Positions 658-14,617 of a stretch of 64,000 bases of DNA are shown one piece after another; position 1 is the stretch's first letter; the number at the start of each line of letters is the position of its first letter. The notes under the pieces were generated by a model, which had not been told where the DNA came from, ran no database searches, and saw only the letters and a program-made list of their open reading frames with translations. A program made the position numbers and the translations under genes. The DNA lies in contig DASWWS010000002.1 in the NCBI GenBank assembly GCA_036405895.1, positions 124,029 to 188,028 on the forward strand. Reading direction: 5' to 3'. The stretch is from Minisyncoccota bacterium (lineage in GTDB: Bacteria > Patescibacteriota > Minisyncoccia > Phycocordibacterales > UBA9973).

Positions 658-1110
658 TTACCACGCCGGATTCATATTTACTCCGAAACAAGACCAATAC
701 GGTGCATTGCTGTTGCACCCGGTATTTGGTTTTCCTTCAAAGTGCACGAACACCACATATCCTTGGCGATCTACCGTTGTCGCATATTGCATGCCGCAAT
801 TGGTTCCTAAAGGATCTACAGGATATGTAGGCAGGAGATTATTGGTCACCAGCGACTGCATAAAGTTATTATTAACAACCGTATACCCTTCGGTTCCCAC
901 ACATTCGTTTTCAGTGATGGGAGGATATGCGCCGTAGGTGTCATAATAGAACTCAAGCGCCGTCTGGATCTGCTTCATATCGGCGAGACGCCTTGTGTCC
1001 CGTGCTTTCACTCGAGCACTGTTGAGGCTCGCCATCACAACGGATGCCAAAATACCGATCACTGCGATGACTACAAGAAGTTCAATAAGAGTGAGCCCGC
1101 GGTTTTTCAC
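658..1110 (-). CDS. type IV pilin-like protein (prepilin N-terminal methylation motif)
   Basis: N-terminus MKNRGLTLIELLVVIAVIGILASV is a class III signal. GTG start 6 nt after TATACT. Paralog of 16537, 17000 and 17546. Confidence 0.85.
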   Translation of the reverse strand: MKNRGLTLIELLVVIAVIGILASVVMASLNSARVKARDTRRLADMKQIQTALEFYYDTYGAYPPITENECVGTEGYTVVNNNFMQSLVTNNLLPTYPVDPLGTNCGMQYATTVDRQGYVVFVHFEGKPNTGCNSNAPYWSCFGVNMNPAW

Positions 1111-1156
1111 AAAAGCAGTATACCGCAGCTTTGGGGGTTGTGGCAGTTTAGAGCCT

Positions 1157-1777
1157 TTATTCAGCAGGAGTGAAGAAGTAAACCGTTTTAAACATTACAA
1201 GTTCTTCATACATTTCATTTTCTACAACGTATTCTTTTCCAAACTGGTTTAGTTCGCTTAAATCAAAATTCTTTGGTATTTGCATTACGACTTTTTCAAA
1301 ATGTTTAAATGCAAGATCAAGTATTTCCTTTCCGGAAGGACTAAAATCTTCGAGAGTAAATTTCTCTTTTTGAGAATAATCAGGTCCGCCCCACGGTGGG
1401 GCTATGAACACTGCTTCCGCCTGAAGCTTTGGGGCTTCTTGGAAGTAGTCGCCAGTGATAAAAGTTACCTTGTCTTCAAGGCCATACACTCTAAGATTGT
1501 TTTTTGCCATTTCAATTCTTTGAGAATCAATTTCGATAGCATAGACATGCTCTGCGTGCTTTGCAAAACCGATTGTATTCCCTCCTATTCCGCAAAAGCC
1601 ATCTACTACAGTTCGAGCTCCGGTCTTTCGAGCATTCTTATCCGCAATATCTTCCGGTCCTACAGAATACAACCCTTCAATATCCGTCTGAATCCCCTCG
1701 TCAAATTTACTGAACTTGTTATATCTTCTGTCCCAGTATTTTTGATATTTTTCTCCAAAAGGATTTTCCTGTTTCAT
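1157..1777 (-). CDS. Tgs1-like RNA (cap) guanine-N2 methyltransferase family protein
   Basis: VVDGFCGIGGNTIGFA SAM motif, VYAIEID, and FIAPPWGGPDY match the Tgs1/PF09445 pattern. Start set at the internal ATG 1777 (TGGTATACT-N6-ATG); the longer ORF overlaps a repeat. Confidence 0.75.
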   Translation of the reverse strand: MKQENPFGEKYQKYWDRRYNKFSKFDEGIQTDIEGLYSVGPEDIADKNARKTGARTVVDGFCGIGGNTIGFAKHAEHVYAIEIDSQRIEMAKNNLRVYGLEDKVTFITGDYFQEAPKLQAEAVFIAPPWGGPDYSQKEKFTLEDFSPSGKEILDLAFKHFEKVVMQIPKNFDLSELNQFGKEYVVENEMYEELVMFKTVYFFTPAE

Positions 1778-1798
1778 ATGTATAGTATACCAAAAGAG

Positions 1799-1950
1799 TT
1801 TGCGGAGTTTCGGTTTATAGTCGCTGTCGTTAAGAGACGAATAAATCGCTTGCGGAGGCATTATGTAGTCGCTAACGCTTCTTATAATGCACTGCGCAAA
1901 ATATGGTCGTATCTTCGATACTCCCTATTTTGCGGGCGTTGTGGCAGGAT
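1799..1950. repeat. ~130-150 bp intergenic module, copy X (paralog of 3351-3500)
   Basis: Long near-identical stretch, cgcttgcggaggcattatRtagtcgctRacgctYcttataatgcactgcgcaaaatatggtcg...cctattttgcgg, shared with 3351-3500. Contains internal TGCGGAG(G)/TAGTCGCT sub-repeats. Confidence 0.85.
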
Positions 1951-1970
1951 GTTGGAACTTATTTAAGCAA

Positions 1971-2447
1971 CTACTCTTCTTTAAATATTCTAGAGTAATC
2001 AGACAACCCGGTATCTTTTAAGTCTTCTTCGATTAAATTCTTCGCTAAATCAAAATTTACAACAAAGCATAAAACTTCCATCGTACCACCCCCAATACTT
2101 CCTCCGTCACAATGACCCAAACCTCTCCATCCGAGAAATTCATTCATCCTACTTTCCAGATTGTGTCGCTTAGTCAAATCATTTTCTGATTCTATTTCAT
2201 CAACCTTGTATTCAATAACAAGCCTTTCTAAAAGTTCATCTGCTACTTCAGTATATCCCTCAATTATTTTCTGATCGTATTCTTTTTGAACTTCTTTTTT
2301 AAAACTTGAGAATATTCCTGAGCTGATTTCTCTCGATTGACCTTCTTCGCCAACCTTACCCCAATGAATAATTCCTGCTCTACCGCTTTTATCCCAAGTT
2401 TCCCAATAGAGTAAGCCGTCTCCAGTTTCTTTATATAGTTTTTCCAT
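1971..2447 (-). CDS. WGR-domain-like protein with uncharacterised C-terminal domain
   Basis: N-terminus LLYWETWDKSGRAGIIHWGKVGEEGQ resembles the WGR motif. TGATATAAT-N6-ATG promoter. AT-rich gene. Confidence 0.6.
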   Translation of the reverse strand: MEKLYKETGDGLLYWETWDKSGRAGIIHWGKVGEEGQSREISSGIFSSFKKEVQKEYDQKIIEGYTEVADELLERLVIEYKVDEIESENDLTKRHNLESRMNEFLGWRGLGHCDGGSIGGGTMEVLCFVVNFDLAKNLIEEDLKDTGLSDYSRIFKEE

Positions 2448-2531
2448 GACAAAATTATATCACGGTATAGCTGCGGGCGTTGTGGCAGAAGTTAGAATCT
2501 TTTTAATCAATTCCAAATTCTAATAACCTTT

Positions 2532-3329
2532 CTATTTAAAAACCGTATCAATCTCTTTCACCAACCAGCTTCCGAGATTCTCTAGAGTATCCACTATTGT
2601 ATTTTTGTCAGAAGTTGGATTAACGGCAAGCTCTAACGCTTTGTACATTTCTTCCTTTTTCTCTGGATAGTATTTTGAGAATTCTTCATAACAAGGATAG
2701 AGGTCGCGTGTGTATTTCTGGGACCGTTCCATCACAAGCTCAAACCCTGAACGTATAATACGCTTCATAATCCAAGTACATCGACGCTTTATCTCTTCTT
2801 CACTACGCTCTTCTTGCAACCACTCTTTCGTCTTATTGATTTCTCGTTCGATGCCTTCAAAATGTTGAGCTGTATCTACGCCCGGCTTTAGAGCCGGAAG
2901 AGTACTAAAAAGATTGTTACCGTACACGCAGATACTTTGGGTCTTGATCATTATTCGATCCCCTTTCGAGTCTGGTATCTCTTCAAGTGGTACGACGCCT
3001 ATTTCTACTCCGACTATAAATGGAAATTGTTTCTTTACTTTTTCTACAAAATCTTTTGACCATTGGATATCAACGTCATCGTATGACACTGTAACAACAG
3101 CGAAACTGTCTATGTCGGAGATGTTGTTTATCGCTTGCCCCTTCGCTACCGAACCTCTTATATAGACACTGTGCAAATGTTCACCAAGGTGTTTTTGATA
3201 TGCATCTTTGACCATTTCAACCGCGGGCATCCATGCCGCCTGAATCTTTTCTGGTGATGTAGTATTGACGATAAAACCATCGGTATCAGTTTGCAAAAAT
3301 GATCCAATGGCTTGTACTTCGTTTTTCAT
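2532..3329 (-). CDS. Pol-beta superfamily nucleotidyltransferase (ANT/KNTase-like)
   Basis: RGSVAKGQAINNISDIDSFAVV is a GS-x(9-13)-DxD NTase motif, followed by a helical C-terminal domain. Start at ATG 3329 (TGATACAAT-N6-ATG); the track start at 3335 is TTG. Confidence 0.75.
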   Translation of the reverse strand: MKNEVQAIGSFLQTDTDGFIVNTTSPEKIQAAWMPAVEMVKDAYQKHLGEHLHSVYIRGSVAKGQAINNISDIDSFAVVTVSYDDVDIQWSKDFVEKVKKQFPFIVGVEIGVVPLEEIPDSKGDRIMIKTQSICVYGNNLFSTLPALKPGVDTAQHFEGIEREINKTKEWLQEERSEEEIKRRCTWIMKRIIRSGFELVMERSQKYTRDLYPCYEEFSKYYPEKKEEMYKALELAVNPTSDKNTIVDTLENLGSWLVKEIDTVFK

Positions 3330-3350
3330 GTCCAAATTGTATCATGGGAA

Positions 3351-3500
3351 AGCTGCGGAGGTGGGTTTATAGTCGCTCTCGCTAAAAACAGAGTGGGTCG
3401 CTTGCGGAGGCATTATATAGTCGCTGACGCTCCTTATAATGCACTGCGCAAAATATGGTCGCACCTACGGTGCTTCCTATTTTGCGGAGGATGTGAGACG
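3351..3500. repeat. ~130-150 bp intergenic module, copy Y (paralog of 1799-1950)
   Basis: Same sequence as copy X, ending in TTTGCGGAGGATGTGAGA. That end duplicates the 3' end (rc) of tRNA-Ser at 3694-3708. Confidence 0.85.
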
Positions 3501-3648
3501 CTGAGCTATTCGCCCGCGAGTCTTTGTTTGATCAGTCACCAAACAAAGCTCTGGGCACCGGCTCAGTAGATTCTTCTGCTGAAGAATCATACTTCCGCCG
3601 TTCTCATCTCAACGTAAACCAAAGCAGTTTGGTTTACTCATCCTCCGC
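3484..3648 (-). ncRNA. tRNA-Ser-derived structured RNA, copy A (unclassified)
   Basis: The ends reproduce the neighbouring tRNA: 5' GGAGGAT and 3' TCTCACATCCTCCGC. There is a closing stem of about 12 bp. Hairpins TAAACCAAA/TTTGGTTTA, GATTCTTC-AGCA-GAAGAATC and CTTTGTTTG/CAAACAAAG are present. The core is shared with copy B. Strand is inferred from sense identity to the tRNA. Confidence 0.55.
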
Positions 3649-3652
3649 GAAT

Positions 3653-3688
3653 AAAAATGGCCCAGATTTCTCTGGGACGCATTTTTAT
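3653..3688. terminator. bidirectional hairpin with A-run and T-run between element A and tRNA-Ser
   Basis: AAAAATG-G-CCCAGA-TTTC-TCTGGG-ACG-CATTTTT. The equivalent hairpin at 4539-4575 has a different, compensating stem (CCGAC/GTCGG). Confidence 0.7.
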
Positions 3689-3693
3689 ACTCG

Positions 3694-3779
3694 CGGAGGA
3701 TGTGAGATTCGAACTCACGGGCCTTTAAGGGGCCGACGGTTTAGTAAACCGTTGATTTAAACCACTCATCCAATCCTCC
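3694..3779 (-). tRNA. tRNA-Ser, class II, apparent anticodon ACU
   Basis: Manual cloverleaf: acceptor GGAGGAT/ATCCTCC, anticodon arm ACGGT-TTACTAA-ACCGT, long variable arm, T-arm GTGAG-TTCGAAT-CTCAC, discriminator G. No encoded CCA. Confidence 0.8.
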
Positions 3780-4383: not shown

Positions 4384-4534
4384 GCGGAGACGGCGAGAAT
4401 TTCTCCCTCGCCTCTCGTTGTGTCAGACACACTTCCTCGGGCTGGTCACCAGCTCAGTAGATTTCTTTGCTAAGAAATCATACTTCCGCTGTTCGAATCT
4501 CACCCGCAATGCAGTTTGCATTGCTCGTCTCCGC
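4384..4534 (-). ncRNA. tRNA-Ser-derived structured RNA, copy B (unclassified)
   Basis: 5' GGAGACG and 3' CTCGCCGTCTCCGC are identical to the adjacent tRNA-Ser(GCU). The T-stem GCGAG/CTCGC is retained with a 9-nt loop. Hairpins CAATGCA/TGCATTG and GATTTCTT-AGCA-AAGAAATC covary with copy A. Confidence 0.55.
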
Positions 4535-4538
4535 GAAT

Positions 4539-4575
4539 AAAAATGGCCCGACATTAGGTCGGACTCATTTTTATA
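4539..4575. terminator. bidirectional hairpin with A-run and T-run between element B and tRNA-Ser
   Basis: AAAAATGG-CCGAC-ATTAG-GTCGG-ACTCATTTTT. Confidence 0.7.
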
Positions 4576-4579
4576 CTCG

Positions 4580-4664
4580 CGGAGACGGCGAGATTCGAAC
4601 TCGCGAGGCTGTGACACCTGCCTCCTTAGCAAGGAGGTACAATCGACCACTCTGACACGTCTCC
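4580..4664 (-). tRNA. tRNA-Ser (anticodon GCU)
   Basis: Acceptor GGAGACG/CGTCTCC, anticodon arm CCTCC-TTGCTAA-GGAGG, long variable arm, T-arm GCGAG-TTCGAAT-CTCGC, discriminator G. Confidence 0.85.
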
Positions 4665-4725
4665 AGTACCGCCACTGTATCATGAAAATACAGTTTTTTA
4701 AAGACTACCCTGCTATACTCTATAC

Positions 4726-5025
4726 ATGACCACTACACACAAAGTACTTGTTGGAATTCTTATCATTATTGTTATTGCGCTTCTTGCGCGCTACGTTGTT
4801 TTTAAAGAAAAGTTCGATGAATGGGGTGCAGGACTCCAGCGTATTGAAGACTGGCAGACTGAGTACAAGCAAAAGAACCCAAATGCTTCCAAAGAAGAAA
4901 TGGATGCTGCATTTGAAGCTGGCATGGACAACATCACTGAGTGGAAAGCAGAGTATAAGCGCGATAATCCAGGCGCGACAGATGCCGAGGCGGATGCTGC
5001 ATTTTCCGCAATGTGGAATAACTAA
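4726..5025 (+). CDS. small membrane-anchored protein with tandem W-x-x-EYK-x-x-NP...DAAF repeats
   Basis: N-terminal TM helix, then two copies of a motif of about 28 aa. TGCTATACT-N6-ATG. Confidence 0.65.
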   Translation: MTTTHKVLVGILIIIVIALLARYVVFKEKFDEWGAGLQRIEDWQTEYKQKNPNASKEEMDAAFEAGMDNITEWKAEYKRDNPGATDAEADAAFSAMWNN

Positions 5026-9576: not shown

Positions 9577-9650
9577 CCGCTCTTAGCTCAGTTGGTTAGA
9601 GCGCCGAGCTTATACCTCGGTGGTCCATGGTTCGAATCCATGAGGGCGGA
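9577..9650 (+). tRNA. tRNA with anticodon UAU (Ile, AUA-decoding)
   Basis: Acceptor CCGCTCT/AGGGCGG (one G-U), D-arm TAGCTCAGTTGGTTAGAGC, anticodon arm CCGAG-CTTATAC-CTCGG, T-arm CATGG-TTCGAAT-CCATG. Confidence 0.8.
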
Positions 9651-9744
9651 CATTAAGTAAACAAATATGCAGTATGCCTCTGAGGCAATGGCGTGTAGCG
9701 TTTCGACCCCAGGGAGAGGCGGACAAGTGCTATACTGTACACAT

Positions 9745-10289: not shown

Positions 10290-12188
10290 TTAAAGCTCGA
10301 TTTTCTTTAATGGAATGCCGTGAGCGGAAATAATTGCTTCATATTCCGGCTGTTCGAGCGTTTCCACTTCGATTAGCTTTGCGGTGATTGCTTCGAGCAC
10401 ACCCTTGTGTTCGGTAAGAACAGTGCGGGCACGCTCAAATCCTTCTTTCATGATGCGCTGCACTTCGGAGTCGACAAGTGCACTAGTCTGCTCTGAATAT
10501 TCTTTTCCTTTCACTCCTTCGCCGAACATTGCGCGGCCTCCGTCGTTTTCAAGGGCAAGCGGGCCGATGGCATCGCTCATCCCCCATCGTGTCACCATGG
10601 CGCGTGCAAGCGCGGTTGCAACCTGAAGGTCGTTTGAAGGACCGGTTGTCACGTCCCCAAAGATTGATTCTTCTGCAACGTATCCTGCAAGCGACATTGC
10701 AATGTCGTCGAGATATTCTTTCTTGGTGGTAAGCTTTCGCTCTTCAAGCGGAAGCTTCAGCGTGTACCCACCGGCGCGCCCTCGTGCAACAATAGAAACT
10801 TTGTGCACCGGGTCAGCATCCGGAAGAACTGATGCAACAAGCGCATGCGCTGCTTCATGATACGCCGTGATTTTCTTTTCTTTCTTTGTCAGCAAATGGC
10901 TCTTGCGCTCAGGCCCGATCATCACTTTTTCAATGGAGCGTACAAGGTCAAACTGCGATATCTTCTTTCGATTTTCGCGTGCTGCCAAGATTGCACCTTC
11001 GTTCATTAATGAGTAGAGGTCGGCTCCGGAGAATCCGGGTGTGCGCTCTGCTATCACCTTGAGATTCACGTCTTCTGCAAACGGCTTTTTGGTGCTGTGC
11101 ACATTCAAAATGTCTTCGCGGTCGCGACGGTCTGGAAGGTCAAGCATCACTCGGCGGTCAAATCGGCCTGGACGCAACAGTGCTGGGTCCAATACATCGC
11201 TTCGGTTCGTTGCCGCCATCACGATTACCTTGTCGTTCGGTTCAAAGCCGTCCATCTCCACCAATATTTGGTTGAGTGTCTGTTCTCGCTCGTCGTTTCC
11301 ACCGCCATATCCGCCTCCGCGTACGCGTCCTACCGCATCAATTTCATCGATAAAAATAATGGACGGTGCTGCGCGCTTTGCCATCTTGAAAAGGTCGCGC
11401 ACGCGCGATGCGCCCACACCGACAAACATCTCAACAAATTCTGATCCTGAAAGATGGAAGAACGGCACACTTGCCTCCCCCGCTACAGCGCGAGCCAAGA
11501 GCGTCTTCCCTGTTCCTGGTGCACCGGCGAGCAATACTCCTTTTGGAATGCGCGCTCCGATATCCAAAAACTTTTTTGGATTCTTCAAAAAGTCCACAAT
11601 TTCTTTGAGTTCTTCCTTGGCTTCGCGCGCACCTGCAACATCTTTGAATGTTACCCTGTTTGTCGTATCGCTTGGGTCAGTGATGCGCGCTTTTGACTGC
11701 CCGAAATTAAATGCCTGCATGCCAGCACCCTTTGCCTGGCGTGTAAGCATCCAAAAAAAGAATCCAATCAATACTACCGGCAAAAGTATTGGGAGAATGG
11801 TAAGGAAAAAGAATGCGAGGCCTGATGCGCTGGCAACAGTAATGTCGACTGCGCTGATGCGAGGCTCTTCAACACCATATGCTGCCAATGTTTCCACCAA
11901 TGAAGCACTTGGTTCTTTTTTGCTTTCAAGAATTGTCTCGTCTGTTTTTGTAACAGTGAGCGCTTGGTCGTCGATGACAATGCTCTTCACCTCCCCTGCC
12001 TGCACAAGGCGTGCAACTTCTGAAAGGGTCACCACTTCGTTCTTTTCTGTCCCCATACCAGAGACAACAGAGTAGCCGGCAGTAAGGAGTGCGAAGATAA
12101 GGAGGGTTGAAAATATATAGGAAGAAAGAGAGCGCTTGGGAGGCGTCTTTTTTATAGGGTTCGGTGTAGGGATTTCTTGTTTGGACAT
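10290..12188 (-). CDS. ftsH: ATP-dependent zinc metalloprotease FtsH
   Basis: Two N-terminal TM helices, AAA+ Walker A GAPGTGKT, an SRH region, HEAAH zinc motif. Confidence 0.97.
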
Positions 12189-13032: not shown

Positions 13033-13473
13033 CTATTGAGCCCCTTCGCGCCTTAGCTCCCGATCAAGGTCGCGCGCTTTGAGCGTTTCTCGTTTGTCGA
13101 AGTTCTTTTTCCCTTTCGCTATTGCGATTTGTACCTTTACGATACTCCCTTTATTATACAACGATATAGGCACTACCGTCAAACCCTTGCTCGAAAGCGC
13201 CCGTAACAAATCATAGAGCTCTTTTTTATTCACTAAAAGCTTTCGGGTGCGATACGGATCATACGCCGAAGAAACATTCTTCTCCTGCCAGGCAGGAATA
13301 TGAGCGCCAAGAAGATAGAGTTCTCCCCCGAGCACTTGCACATAGGCCCCATTGAGGCTGCCGTGATTTGCTTTGAGGGATTTCACTTCAGTACCGAGAA
13401 GCTGTATGCCCGCTTCGAGTGTTTCCTCGAAAGAGTAGTCATGCGATGCTTTTTTATTCCGGATAAATTCCAT
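13033..13473 (-). CDS. smpB: SsrA-binding protein SmpB
   Basis: IRNKKASHDY...GTEVKSL...RTRKLL motifs. Start at internal ATG 13473 (146 aa), since the upstream extension is non-homologous. Confidence 0.92.
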   Translation of the reverse strand: MEFIRNKKASHDYSFEETLEAGIQLLGTEVKSLKANHGSLNGAYVQVLGGELYLLGAHIPAWQEKNVSSAYDPYRTRKLLVNKKELYDLLRALSSKGLTVVPISLYNKGSIVKVQIAIAKGKKNFDKRETLKARDLDRELRREGAQ

Positions 13474-13557
13474 ACTAGACCAATCGTACCATGTATGAAC
13501 AAATATTGACATATCCGCATAACATGCGATAATAGTGACAAAACAAAATTGATAACT

Positions 13558-13923
13558 ATGCAAAGTGAACAAAAAACCCGGTATTCCGACTCTGAACTAA
13601 GAGAGTTCAAAGCGCTCATAGTGGAAAAACTAAAAAGCAGCCGCGAAGAATTAGCAGACTTTTTAAGCCAGATGAGCATCGACAACGAAAAAGTTTCGTT
13701 GAGTGACTACAGTGCCGTAACAGAGGAAAAAGAATACCTTGGCAAGCAGGCGGGCCGCAAGAAAACATTTATTCAAAACCTGGAAAATGCACTGATACGC
13801 ATTGAAAACAAGACGTACGGTATCTGCCGGATAACAGGTAATCTGATACCGAAAGGGCGTTTACTTGCAGTACCTCACGCTACGTTATGCATGGAGGCAA
13901 AATTGAAACAATCAGCCGCATAA
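13558..13923 (+). CDS. DksA/TraR family protein with degenerate zinc finger
   Basis: Coiled-coil followed by YGICRITGNLIPKGRLLAVPHATLCMEAK. Only 2 of the 4 canonical Cys are present. Confidence 0.75.
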   Translation: MQSEQKTRYSDSELREFKALIVEKLKSSREELADFLSQMSIDNEKVSLSDYSAVTEEKEYLGKQAGRKKTFIQNLENALIRIENKTYGICRITGNLIPKGRLLAVPHATLCMEAKLKQSAA

Positions 13924-13971: not shown

Positions 13972-14559
13972 TTACAGCTCAAGATCAATTCCAATTCCGA
14001 GCATTACGGCTTTTGGTCCGACAGTTGCCGAAACATTAAACAATCCAAGTGTGTACTGAGTACGAATACCGGTCACCGCTTCCGTTTGGCTATAGAGCCC
14101 GAGCGAAAGCTTCTCTCCTACTCCGTACATCACCGACGTCATTTGGAAAAATCCATACGGGCGAGAATAATACGGATTGGTGTACAGCATAAACTTCCCT
14201 TTCTGGCTCTCCTCTTGTGCATGCGATTCAAAATACGCATATGCATTAAGGCTTGCACTGGTGCGGCCCCGAGCAAAATCAATACCCGGGCCAAGTGAAA
14301 GTTCAACATAGTTATCGCCTGGTGCAAATGCAATCAAGGGCCCAAGAGAGACGCCCAGAAGCCCTGGTTCATTTACAACAAATCCAAATACCCCAACTCC
14401 TCGCTTGTTTGTATGAGCAAACGATGCCCATTGAAAAGTTTCAAGACCTTTTGCATCAAACTGTTTGGTTGCTTGAGCTTCGGCGCTTACAAGAGTTTGT
14501 TGCGCCATTGCTGTACTTGTTGCCACCAAGGCAAGAAGTACTGTGAGTAATTTCTTCAT
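13972..14559 (-). CDS. secreted beta-strand-rich protein (small OMP-like barrel candidate)
   Basis: Sec signal ending AMAQ. Alternating hydrophobic pattern with Gly/aromatic girdles. TGCTATAAT promoter plus an AAGGA Shine-Dalgarno sequence. Confidence 0.6.
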   Translation of the reverse strand: MKKLLTVLLALVATSTAMAQQTLVSAEAQATKQFDAKGLETFQWASFAHTNKRGVGVFGFVVNEPGLLGVSLGPLIAFAPGDNYVELSLGPGIDFARGRTSASLNAYAYFESHAQEESQKGKFMLYTNPYYSRPYGFFQMTSVMYGVGEKLSLGLYSQTEAVTGIRTQYTLGLFNVSATVGPKAVMLGIGIDLEL

Positions 14560-14617
14560 TTTCCTTTGTTAATTTGCGTATATTATAGCACAAATTGAAC
14601 AAAAAATCAAGTATATA

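What the first reader, a model, noticed from the sequence alone, without database searches (positions are those of the whole stretch)
1122..3500. AT-rich array of single-gene cassettes bounded by iterated tRNA-3'-end-like motifs and a duplicated ~130 bp module
Downstream of the tRNA-Ser/element pair, three co-oriented accessory genes each end in a short related motif. The genes are the NTase (2532-3329), the WGR protein (1971-2447) and the Tgs1-like MTase (1157-1777). On the minus strand the motif reads CTGCCACAACGCCCGCA at 2472-2488 and 1931-1947, and CTGCCACAACCCCCAAAGC at 1125-1143. It aligns with the element/tRNA terminus TCTCACATCCTCCGCA and looks like T-stem-3'-half plus acceptor plus discriminator of another tRNA. 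The NTase and MTase are each preceded by the same ~130-150 bp module (3351-3500; 1799-1950). That module carries further copies of the tRNA-Ser terminus (CCTCCGCA at about 3354, 3403, 3484; 1801, 1851) and TAGTCGCT sub-repeats. Each gene has its own leaderless-type promoter. The genes are visibly more AT-rich than the flanks. This is the pattern expected from repeated site-specific insertion at tRNA 3' ends, or from an integron-like cassette array. No recombinase is in the window.
Basis: partly seen in the sequence, partly recalled or inferred. Interest (0 to 1): 0.65.

Follow-up and report, generated by a model that had tools for sequence, protein, structure and literature searches.

The report
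Gene-cassette hot spot behind tRNA-Ser
Behind a serine tRNA gene of an uncultured Paceibacterota (CPR) bacterium lies a small, fast-changing array of single-gene cassettes, each ending in a short tRNA-end look-alike sequence; this is the footprint of repeated site-specific DNA insertion, a known way to build genomic islands that is seen here in an unusually miniature, integron-like form.

Summary
Three co-oriented, AT-rich genes with leaderless-type promoters (NTase, WGR, Tgs1-like MTase) each end in CTGCCACAAC(G/C)CCC..A. A ~130-nt module occurs twice at 83% identity. None of this recurs elsewhere in the 64 kb.

Related genomes decide what it is. Two close relatives keep the flanks (DoxX 88-91%, RRM 99-100%; the pilin, 85%, only in L246). 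Between tRNA-Ser(ACU) and those flanks they carry entirely different genes, and L246 uses the same motif and module as separators. A third genome has the 28-nt motif 11 times in 12 kb, always in one orientation whatever the gene strand. NTase homologues (75-79%) sit in six further contexts, twice directly after a tRNA-Ser gene or the structured element that follows it.

In one relative the motif takes the exact place of the tRNA-Ser 3' end. Every unit ends at ...GCA|.

Best reading: a tRNA-Ser-anchored insertion hot spot made by serial site-specific recombination. The window holds no recombinase. IS-like large serine recombinases abut tRNA-Ser genes at the same junction in two other genomes and are the prime suspect.

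It is not an integron: no attC palindrome and no IntI, and each cassette has its own promoter. I rate it a new variant of tRNA-anchored tandem islands.

The parts
3693..3779 (-). tRNA-Ser(ACU), the conserved anchor of the array
   Evidence: ARAGORN and Rfam tRNA at 55 bits. The same tRNA sits at the same place in L246 and L248.
3651..3692 (-). Terminator-like hairpin spacer between the tRNA and the structured element
   Evidence: An identical arrangement follows a motif copy in L246 at 14234-14272.
3483..3650 (-). ~170-nt structured element. Its 5' end is the reverse complement of the tRNA-Ser 3' end and its 3' end is a direct copy of it (...TCTCACATCCTCCGCA). The first cassette junction lies at its 3' end.
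   Evidence: Fold z-score -9.2. 14 of 39 pairs show compensatory changes across 5 copies. No Rfam family matches. Homology with L246 stops at about window 3490.
3354..3482 (-). Module A: a weak terminator hairpin (3461-3473) plus two ~48-nt sub-repeats, each ending in CCTCCGCA (3403-3410 and 3354-3361)
   Evidence: (D1). Homologous modules occur in L246 at 11377-11454, 13355-13432 and 14483-14564.
3330..3353 (-). NTase promoter (TGATACAAT), with the ATG 6 nt downstream (leaderless type)
   Evidence: Sequence.
2532..3329 (-). Cassette 1 gene: nucleotidyltransferase
   Evidence: Homologues at 75-79% identity lie in six other genomic contexts.
2472..2499 (-). Boundary motif copy 1 (GATTCTAACTTCTGCCACAACGCCCGCA|), which closes cassette 1
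2448..2471 (-). WGR promoter (GCTATACCGTGATATAAT), leaderless type
   Evidence: The layout is the same as the L023 and L246 cassette starts (GCTACTTT..TATAAT).
1971..2447 (-). Cassette 2 gene: WGR-domain protein
   Evidence: It has no homologue in any related locus fetched.
1931..1958 (-). Boundary motif copy 2 (GTTCCAACATCCTGCCACAACGCCCGCA|), full 28-nt form
   Evidence: It is identical to L246 13327-13354 and differs at 1 of 28 positions from the L023 consensus.
1801..1930 (-). Module B, a paralogue of module A. Its hairpin stem carries two compensatory changes relative to module A.
   Evidence: (D1).
1778..1800 (-). MTase promoter (TGGTATACT), leaderless type
1157..1777 (-). Cassette 3 gene: Tgs1-like (PF09445) methyltransferase
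   Evidence: It also hits the PADLOC mad2 model at 1.6e-17.
1130..1154 (-). Boundary motif copy 3, degenerate (GGCTCTAAACTGCCACAACCCCCAAA|), the last junction before the conserved flank
   Evidence: (E=0.047).
658..1129 (-). Conserved distal flank: pilin promoter (GCTGCGGTATACT) and a type IV pilin-like gene
   Evidence: The protein is 85% identical to L246 15971-16462, and the promoter is also conserved.
4385..4664 (-). Second pair: tRNA-Ser(GCU) (4579-4664), hairpin and element 2 (4385-4535). The closing stem of element 2 matches this tRNA instead.
   Evidence: (D2, D4). The tRNA is inverted here relative to L246, L247 and L248, which lack element 2.

Best explanation
The region is a small hypervariable islet anchored at the 3' side of tRNA-Ser(ACU). 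It was built by serial site-specific insertion, and sometimes deletion, of DNA units at a junction that always reads ...C(C/T)CCGCA|. The primary site is the tRNA-Ser 3' end, or the direct copy of that end that closes the ~170-nt structured element. Each gene cassette brings its own extended -10 promoter with a leaderless start, one or two genes, and a terminal pseudo-tRNA-3'-end site: GTTCyAAy, 13-15 variable bases, then CCGCA, 28 nt in this lineage. Each insertion therefore regenerates a usable site, and cassettes stack up between the anchor and the conserved pilin gene. The hairpin-plus-element unit and the ~130-nt module behave as non-coding units of the same kind, because each also ends in ...CTCCGCA. 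The recombinase acts in trans and is not in the window. The prime suspect is an IS-like large serine recombinase (LSR) that is very common in Patescibacteria. What is shown: the anatomy, the local restriction, the single orientation, the turnover between relatives, the recurrence of one cassette gene at different tRNA-Ser genes, and the motif standing in for a tRNA end. What is inferred: that the junctions come from site-specific recombination, the order of insertion, and the identity of the enzyme.
For: (1) Turnover with fixed flanks. The window, L246 and L248 share TruB, SmpB, FtsH, tRNA-Ile, RecG, RRM, TMEM175, tRNA-Ser(GCU), DoxX and tRNA-Ser(ACU). RRM is 99-100% identical, DoxX 88-91% and the pilin 85%. 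No gene between tRNA-Ser(ACU) and the pilin is shared: the window has 3 genes in 2.35 kb and L246 has 6 in 5.1 kb. (2) Same separators, different genes. L246 carries the motif at 11357, 12730, 13327, 14207 and 15340, all on the + strand, and the module at three sites plus a partial copy. (3) L023 has 11 full copies plus one partial duplicate and a sub-family variant over 12 kb. All are on the + strand, in nearly every intergenic gap, although 5 genes are on the minus strand. Five copies are identical 28-mers. (4) The NTase is mobile. In L244 it lies 85 nt after tRNA-Ser(UGA). In L245 it follows tRNA-Ser plus an element. In L023 it is inside the array. In L020 and L024 it is inside islands that carry an LSR; the L020 island abuts tRNA-Asn. 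In L243 it follows ddl. In L243 and L245 the shared upstream sequence begins right after ...CCGCA|. (5) Positional equivalence. In L246 at 14207 the motif is followed by the same hairpin and a full second element, just as tRNA-Ser(ACU) is. In L248 the tRNA end and a 23-nt variant are both followed by ATWAGCAGRTAGCACG. (6) A nested junction series (motif|element, motif|module, motif|promoter, element|module, module|promoter) breaks at the same ...GCA| position each time. (7) The cassettes are compositionally foreign: GC3 0.28-0.39 against 0.48-0.60. (8) Candidate enzyme. An uncalled LSR in L248 (Resolvase, Recombinase and Zn-ribbon domains) and a 62% homologue in L252 both lie convergent with, and next to, the 3' end of a tRNA-Ser gene. 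Both are flanked by 60-120-nt inverted repeats. In L252 those repeats start right after ...CCGCA| on both sides; in L248 the inner pair starts after ...CGCCA|. More than 7,400 homologues exist, many on ~2-kb contigs.
Against: No recombinase was found in the 64-kb window or in the 20 kb of L246. No excised circle or empty site was seen. The same window arrangement occurs in 10 samples of one study, so there is no sign of ongoing movement there. The repeats are not copies of the anchor tRNA's own 3' end, which is what simple re-integration into that tRNA would give; they are a distinct sequence 5 nt longer. Classical LSR integration destroys attB, so tandem stacking would need an SCC/Ccr-like or transposase-like mode. 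The link between the LSR and the cassettes is by association only. In 5 cases the motif ends exactly 12 nt before the -10 box, so part of its conservation could reflect promoter function. Only three genomes carry this exact motif. The large-collection scans I ran used too short a pattern and gave no usable information.
Confidence: 0.6

Rival explanations
1. Cassette exchange by homologous recombination. The conserved intergenic pieces (motif, module, promoter, element) are ordinary regulatory sequence. They act as homology anchors, so that DNA taken up by the competence machinery replaces whole genes between them, as with 'minimal mobile elements'. No dedicated recombinase is needed.
For: The window encodes ComEC and type IV pilus genes. 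The modules are 80-130 nt and 80-90% identical within and between genomes, which is long enough for RecA. No recombinase lies nearby.
Against: Many junctions have only the 28-nt motif as shared sequence. Breakpoints fall at one fixed position (...GCA|) and not anywhere within the shared sequence. The motif keeps one orientation around minus-strand cassettes. The same junction bounds LSR elements and real tRNA-Ser ends.
Confidence: 0.17
2. Shared regulatory element. The motif, together with GCTACTTT and the -10 box, is a lineage-specific promoter or operator for a co-regulated set of accessory genes. The array grew by local duplication of this promoter region and not by insertion.
For: The motif ends exactly 12 nt before the -10 hexamer in 5 cassettes (WGR in the window; L023 6804, 7371 and 10443; L246 15369). 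The module is a plain local duplication within the window.
Against: Several L023 copies are followed by something other than a promoter. Those at 1142 and 5096 run into the terminators of minus-strand genes; those at 583, 9573 and 12049 are followed by a different module. The motif can be followed by a whole element or module before any promoter. Duplication does not explain unrelated genes at the same locus in relatives, nor the NTase appearing at three different tRNA-Ser genes.
Confidence: 0.08
3. Eroded remains of a few large tRNA-integrated islands or prophages. Ordinary integrase-carrying elements inserted in tandem and then lost their integrases and most of their genes, leaving partial-tRNA scars between surviving cargo genes.
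For: Tandem islands with scattered partial tRNAs are well documented (10.1101/2020.12.28.424599). NTase homologues do ride in larger LSR-carrying islands (L020, L024).
Against: No integrase or phage gene fragments lie between the repeats. There is a repeat at almost every gene boundary. Five of the L023 copies are identical 28-mers, which is not what old scars look like. Every unit has an intact promoter.
Confidence: 0.1

Closest known systems
Tandem genomic islands at tRNA/tmRNA genes, including Prochlorococcus tycheposons and their cargo-only remnants (10.1101/2020.12.28.424599; Islander concept, PMC4383910)
   Same: Both are anchored at the 3' side of a tRNA gene. New arrivals push older ones further in. 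Partial-tRNA repeats mark the boundaries. The content varies between close relatives, the units often lack an integrase, and the cargo is compositionally distinct.
   Different: Here the units are single genes of 0.5-2 kb, each with its own leaderless-type promoter. The boundary repeat is not a copy of the anchor tRNA's end but a separate, conserved 28-nt pseudo-end, 5 nt longer. A structured ~170-nt element sits between the tRNA and the array. No tyrosine integrase was seen; the recombinases found nearby in relatives are large serine recombinases.
SCC composite islands at rlmH (orfX) in staphylococci, mobilised by Ccr large serine recombinases (PMC12648241 for repeats, ccr and psiSCC; composite arrays from my own knowledge)
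   Same: Both stack elements serially at the 3' end of one conserved gene. Each element is bounded by short direct repeats of the target end, plus inverted repeats. Many units lack their own recombinase and depend on one supplied in trans. The enzyme class is a large serine recombinase.
   Different: The target here is a tRNA-Ser end and not a protein gene. The units are roughly 10-50 times smaller. The LSR family is IS-like, with 60-120-nt inverted repeats. No experiment links it to the cassettes.
Chromosomal integrons and CALINs (attC clusters without an integrase)
   Same: Both are co-oriented arrays of mostly single-gene cassettes, each closed by a repeated site. The repeats within one genome are homogeneous, content differs between relatives, and insertion seems to occur next to a fixed platform.
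   Different: There is no IntI. The site is 28 nt and not palindromic, so it lacks the R''-L''/L'-R' hairpin and a GTTRRRY/RYYYAAC pair. The cassettes carry their own promoters. The platform is a tRNA plus a structured element and not attI.

Membership tests
Integron / CALIN | attC sites: imperfect palindromes of 57-141 nt with paired R''/L'' and L'/R' boxes (RYYYAAC ... GTTRRRY) | tested here: not met
   The conserved unit is 28 nt with no internal or flanking inverted partner. A TTCTAAC/TTCCAAC stretch resembles R'', but no GTTRRRY partner follows it.
Integron / CALIN | An IntI tyrosine recombinase next to attI (not required for a CALIN) | tested here: not met
   No Phage_integrase or other recombinase domain in the 38 window ORFs scanned.
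Integron / CALIN | Promoterless cassettes expressed from a common Pc promoter | tested here: not met
   Each cassette has its own TGnTAnAAT box 6-7 nt before the ATG. This rests on sequence only; there is no transcript data.
Integron / CALIN | A co-oriented array of mostly single-gene cassettes, each ending in the repeated site, with content that varies between relatives | tested here: met
   Window 3 cassettes, L246 6, L023 at least 11, with no shared genes between the window and L246.
tRNA-anchored tandem genomic islands (Islander type, tycheposons) | Location directly 3' of a tRNA or tmRNA gene | tested here: met
   tRNA-Ser(ACU) at 3693-3779. The same anchor is present in L246 and L248. 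NTase cassettes also follow tRNA-Ser in L244 and L245.
tRNA-anchored tandem genomic islands (Islander type, tycheposons) | Boundaries marked by direct repeats of the target tRNA's 3' fragment | tested here: inconclusive
   The element and module ends do repeat (C)CTCCGCA from the tRNA-Ser end. The cassette-closing 28-mer only resembles a tRNA end and is 5 nt longer. Its equivalence by position is shown in L246 and L248. No source tRNA was found.
tRNA-anchored tandem genomic islands (Islander type, tycheposons) | An integrase gene inside the island, usually next to the tRNA | tested here: not met
   None in the window array or in the L246 array. LSRs do lie next to tRNA-Ser in L248 and L252, and next to tRNA-Asn in L020.
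tRNA-anchored tandem genomic islands (Islander type, tycheposons) | Presence/absence polymorphism between related genomes with conserved flanks | tested here: met
SCC-like composite islands (LSR-driven) | Ccr-type large serine recombinase shown to recombine the boundary repeats | not testable with these tools
   Only association is available. In L252 the LSR element's inverted repeats start right after ...CCGCA| on both sides; in L248 the inner pair starts after ...CGCCA|.
REP/BIME/MITE-type or uptake-sequence-type dispersed repeats | Genome-wide scatter in both orientations, usually palindromic | tested here: not met
   There are no copies in the other 61 kb of the window. All 11 profile hits in L023, all 4 in L246 and all 3 in the window lie on one strand of their locus, which in the window and L246 is the strand of the anchor tRNA. 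The motif is not palindromic.

The most novel reading that the evidence does not exclude
Patescibacteria may possess an integron-like gene-capture system of their own. Self-promoted, mostly single-gene cassettes, each ending in a 23- or 28-nt pseudo-tRNA site, would be captured at tRNA-Ser 3' ends. The enzyme would be an abundant IS-like large serine recombinase working in trans. The ~170-nt structured element, whose ends mimic the neighbouring tRNA-Ser in inverted and direct orientation, would serve as the docking platform, either as folded DNA or as RNA. This would be a main route of accessory-gene turnover in these reduced genomes.
Probability: 0.25. Interest if true: 0.85.

Novelty: new variant of a known kind. 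Interest (0 to 1): 0.6.

Why it matters
CPR/Patescibacteria have tiny genomes and few recognised mobile elements, so how they gain and lose accessory genes is poorly understood. This locus, with its relatives, shows a compact and recurring architecture for swapping single genes at tRNA-Ser genes: anchor tRNA, structured element, pseudo-tRNA boundary sites and self-promoted cassettes. It also gives concrete, testable parts: a defined 28-nt site, a fixed junction, and a candidate recombinase family with thousands of members. If the recombinase link holds, it would add a serine-recombinase counterpart to integrons. It might also supply small, well-defined recombination sites for tool building.

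Tried and rejected
1. Known RNA family for the element or module. Rfam at E<=1 gave only the three tRNAs and chance hits.

2. A small protein encoded antisense through the module. The frame is open in both window copies (59% identity) but carries a stop in all L246 copies. Rejected.

3. Integron attC. No palindrome or R'/R'' pair. Rejected.

4. A canonical tRNA 3' half. No tRNA with a matching acceptor was found in any locus.

5. Genome-wide repeat or uptake sequence. Rejected on local restriction and strict orientation.

6. Searches that led nowhere:
- The genome-contig scan with the element core gave 1 true hit in 16 (L005).
- The metagenome protein scan with DoxX found nothing.
- The metagenome and viral scans with a 16-mer of the motif returned only single chance hits in GC-rich DNA; the pattern was too short and this was my error.
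- Three further viral scans with longer patterns gave only coding-sequence chance hits.
- Exact-protein look-ups of the three cassette proteins returned only the same population.

7. A loose bipartite regex for motif variants is no better than shuffles in the window: 28 hits against 22.8 expected. Variant copies in other lineages were therefore accepted only when supported by context.
Full report
**What is in the window**

On the minus strand the order is as follows:
- tRNA-Ser(ACU), 3693-3779
- a terminator-like hairpin
- a ~170-nt structured element (3483-3650) that ends ...TCTCACATCCTCCGCA
- module A (3354-3482)
- NTase (2532-3329)
- motif copy 1 (2472-2499)
- WGR protein (1971-2447)
- motif copy 2 (1931-1958)
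- module B (1801-1930)
- Tgs1-like methyltransferase (1157-1777)
- a degenerate motif copy 3 (1130-1154)
- the promoter and gene of a type IV pilin-like protein (658-1129)

Each of the three genes has a TGnTAnAAT box 6-7 nt before its ATG.

The 17-mer CTGCCACAACGCCCGCA occurs twice exactly and once with 3 mismatches. It occurs nowhere else in the 64 kb. The chance expectation is 0.25, and 0 of 100 shuffles reach 3. The two modules are 83% identical over 132 nt. Each holds two ~48-nt sub-repeats ending in CCTCCGCA, an 8-mer found only here in the window.

The three genes have GC3 of 0.28-0.39, against 0.48-0.60 for the flanking genes.

**The surroundings**

The window is a core chromosomal region of a Candidatus Paceibacterota MAG. 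It holds the ribosomal-protein cluster, EF-Tu/EF-G, FtsH, RecG, SmpB, ComEC and type IV pilus genes. No recombinase domain was found in 38 ORFs scanned.

A second pair, tRNA-Ser(GCU) plus element 2, lies at 4385-4664. In each pair the element's closing stem has the sequence of its own tRNA's acceptor and T-stem 3' strand. Its 5' end is the reverse complement of that strand. The cores of the two elements are about 80% identical.

The element has no Rfam match. It folds far better than shuffled sequence (z = -9.2 and -7.8). Across five copies from three genomes, 14 of 39 predicted pairs keep pairing through double changes.

**Comparative evidence: the decisive part**

*Syntenic relatives.* Homologues of the DoxX protein that sits between the two tRNA-Ser genes led to two close, syntenic relatives. 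These are L246 (DoxX 91%) and L248 (88%).

All three genomes share TruB, SmpB, FtsH, tRNA-Ile, RecG, RRM (99-100% aa), TMEM175 (88-93%), tRNA-Ser(GCU), DoxX and tRNA-Ser(ACU). L246 also has the pilin gene (85%) further on. Between tRNA-Ser(ACU) and the pilin, the window has its three genes in 2.35 kb. L246 has six unrelated genes in 5.1 kb. L248 has yet other genes. No cassette gene is shared.

In L246 the separators are the same motif (11357, 12730, 13327, 14207, 15340; all on the gene strand) and the same module (three full copies and one partial).

*A longer array.* A further genome, L023, was reached through a 78%-identical NTase. It carries the 28-nt motif GTTCCAACATCCTGCCACAGCGCCCGCA 11 times, plus one partial duplicate and one sub-family variant, within 12 kb. 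All copies are on one strand and lie in almost every intergenic gap, although five of the genes lie on the other strand. Five copies are identical.

*The NTase moves.* Homologues at 75-79% identity occur in these places:
- inside the L023 array
- 85 nt after tRNA-Ser(UGA) in L244
- after a tRNA-Ser plus a different element in L245, where the 20-mer CGAATCCCTTACCCTCCGCA is repeated 201 nt apart
- after ddl in L243
- inside larger islands with a large serine recombinase in L020 and L024; the L020 island abuts tRNA-Asn

In L243 and L245 the shared sequence upstream of the NTase begins immediately after ...CCGCA|.

**What the motif is**

In L246 at 14207, the motif GTTCCAACTTCCTGCCACAACGCCCGCGA is followed by the same hairpin and by a complete second copy of the element. 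That is exactly what follows tRNA-Ser(ACU) 3.6 kb upstream.

In L248, the true tRNA-Ser end (GTTCGAATCTCACATCCTCCGCC) and a 23-nt variant (GTTCTAACACGACGCTCTCCGCC) are each followed by ATWAGCAGRTAGCACG.

So the motif stands where a tRNA 3' end, from T-loop to terminus, would stand. It is nevertheless not a usable tRNA half. The 28-nt class is 5 nt too long, and no matching tRNA was found.

Across lineages (L005, L245, L248, L252, L243) the ends GTTCyAAy and CCGCA, and the length of 23 or 28 nt, are kept while the middle varies. That is the pattern of a protein-recognition site.

A table of about 50 junctions shows that every unit ends at the same ...GCA| position. This holds for tRNA ends, element ends, module sub-repeats and cassette motifs. 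What follows the junction falls into a few interchangeable classes: promoter GCTACTTT..TATAAT, module AAATAGG.., hairpin plus element, or unique sequence. The nested series motif|element|module|promoter, motif|module|promoter and motif|promoter is what recombination between directly repeated core sites would produce.

**Mechanism proposed**

I propose serial site-specific insertion at the tRNA-Ser or element 3' end. Each cassette would bring a site that mimics that end, so the site is regenerated and older cassettes are pushed towards the pilin gene. The most degenerate copy is indeed the distal one.

The enzyme is not in the window. The gene callers missed a large serine recombinase in L248 (8314-9780; Resolvase, Recombinase and Zn-ribbon domains). 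It lies convergent with, and about 50 nt from, the 3' end of tRNA-Ser(GCU). It sits between 60-nt inverted repeats whose outer parts are GTTC...CGCCA pseudo-tRNA ends.

A 62% homologue in L252 lies the same way against tRNA-Ser(UGA). Its ~120-nt inverted repeats begin right after ...CCGCA| on both sides. On one side that junction belongs to the real tRNA. On the other it belongs to a 28-nt motif variant.

The family has more than 7,400 members, mostly labelled Patescibacteria. Many sit on ~2-kb contigs, as multi-copy IS-like elements do.

The layout 'tRNA end | hairpin | inverted tRNA end' at the start of the window's element is the same palindrome with the recombinase gene missing (I1). This makes the LSR the prime suspect, but only by association. 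Confidence in this specific enzyme is about 0.3.

**Rivals**

- *Homologous recombination through the shared intergenic pieces after DNA uptake.* This is possible, since ComEC and pili are present and the modules reach 130 nt. It does not explain the fixed breakpoint, the 28-nt-only junctions, or the link to real tRNA ends.
- *A purely regulatory motif.* Five cassettes have a constant 12-nt distance from motif to the -10 box. But several L023 copies run into terminators of opposite-strand genes or into other modules, and the gene turnover argues against it.
- *Eroded large islands.* This is unlikely given the absence of integrase or phage debris, the repeat at nearly every gene boundary, and the identical 28-mers.

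**Comparison with known systems**

It works like tandem tRNA-anchored islands and tycheposon remnants. [quoted passage not shown]

It also works like SCC composite islands, which are bounded by direct and inverted repeats and mobilised by Ccr serine recombinases, with ccr-less units (PMC12648241). The composite-array part of that comparison comes from my own knowledge.

It looks like an integron array but fails the defining tests. There is no attC palindrome and no IntI, and each cassette has its own promoter.

The differences from all of these are:
- single-gene units that carry their own promoter
- a conserved pseudo-tRNA site that differs from the anchor tRNA's own end
- the structured element between the tRNA and the array
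- the CPR host

I rate it a new variant of a known kind.

**Limits**

Only three genomes carry this exact motif. My wide scans with a 16-mer were too unspecific to count copies genome-wide. No circles or empty sites were observed. The arrangement is stable across 10 samples of one study. The function of the element, as RNA or as folded DNA, is unknown.

Noticed in passing
window 3693-3779; L246 10544-10630; L248 11118-11206: A tRNA-Ser with anticodon ACU (A at position 34) is conserved in three genomes, next to a normal tRNA-Ser(GCU) that already reads AGY. As far as I know, A34 tRNAs other than tRNA-Arg(ACG) are unusual in bacteria.
   Followed up: partly
window 3483-3650 and 4385-4535; L005 about 2943-3098 (-); L246 10667-10833 and 14272-14482: A ~170-nt structured element with no Rfam family. 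It has a nearly invariant core (GAACAGCGGAAGTATGATT..AATCTACTGAGC), and its closing stem copies the neighbouring tRNA-Ser's 3' end. 14 of 39 pairs show compensatory changes. In L005 it stands without a tRNA. L245 has a different core with the same end logic.
   Followed up: partly
L248 8089-9762; L252 151-1949: An IS-like large serine recombinase unit flanked by 60-120-nt inverted repeats. It abuts the 3' end of a tRNA-Ser gene in two genomes, and the gene was not called in the L248 source record. It has more than 7,400 homologues, many on ~2-kb contigs.
   Followed up: partly
window 4385-5025 compared with L246 9760-10000, L247 and L248: tRNA-Ser(GCU) is inverted in the window relative to three relatives. 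Only in the window is it followed by element 2 and accompanied by a 99-aa ORF (4726-5025). This suggests a second rearrangement hot spot at this tRNA.
   Followed up: partly
window 9577-9651: A tRNA-Ile with anticodon UAU, instead of the usual lysidine-modified CAU type. It is also present in L246 and L248.
   Followed up: no
L245 2849-2928 and 3659-3738: An 80-nt repeat (95% identical) covers a promoter plus the first ~14 codons. It is shared by two unrelated genes, a HAD hydrolase and an ornithine/DAP decarboxylase.
   Followed up: no
L023 7960-7975; L243 about 1262-1290; L245 about 240-270 and 2133-2150; L248 11206-11225 and 12069-12090: An AGCTAGCACGAG box recurs at the start of cassettes right after the junction. 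It is often part of an inverted repeat, and in L023 it forms the perfect 16-nt palindrome CTCGTGCTAGCACGAG. It could be an operator or a recombinase accessory site.
   Followed up: no
L246 11455-11530; L023 584-640, 9574-9630, 12050-12110: A second ~60-nt module (GCTTTTTGAACCTTATTTTCCAGTGCTC.TTTTTGAGA..). Its far end reads as an inverted partial tRNA-Ser T-arm (GTGAGATTCGAAC in L246). It follows some motif copies.
   Followed up: no
window 13033-13572: SmpB is encoded here, but ARAGORN finds no tmRNA gene anywhere in the 64 kb.
   Followed up: no
window 1157-1777 and 2532-3329: The cassette methyltransferase hits the PADLOC 'mad2' model (1.6e-17). The NTase weakly hits oligonucleotide-cyclase models (about 1e-5). 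The cargo may therefore be defence-related.
   Followed up: no
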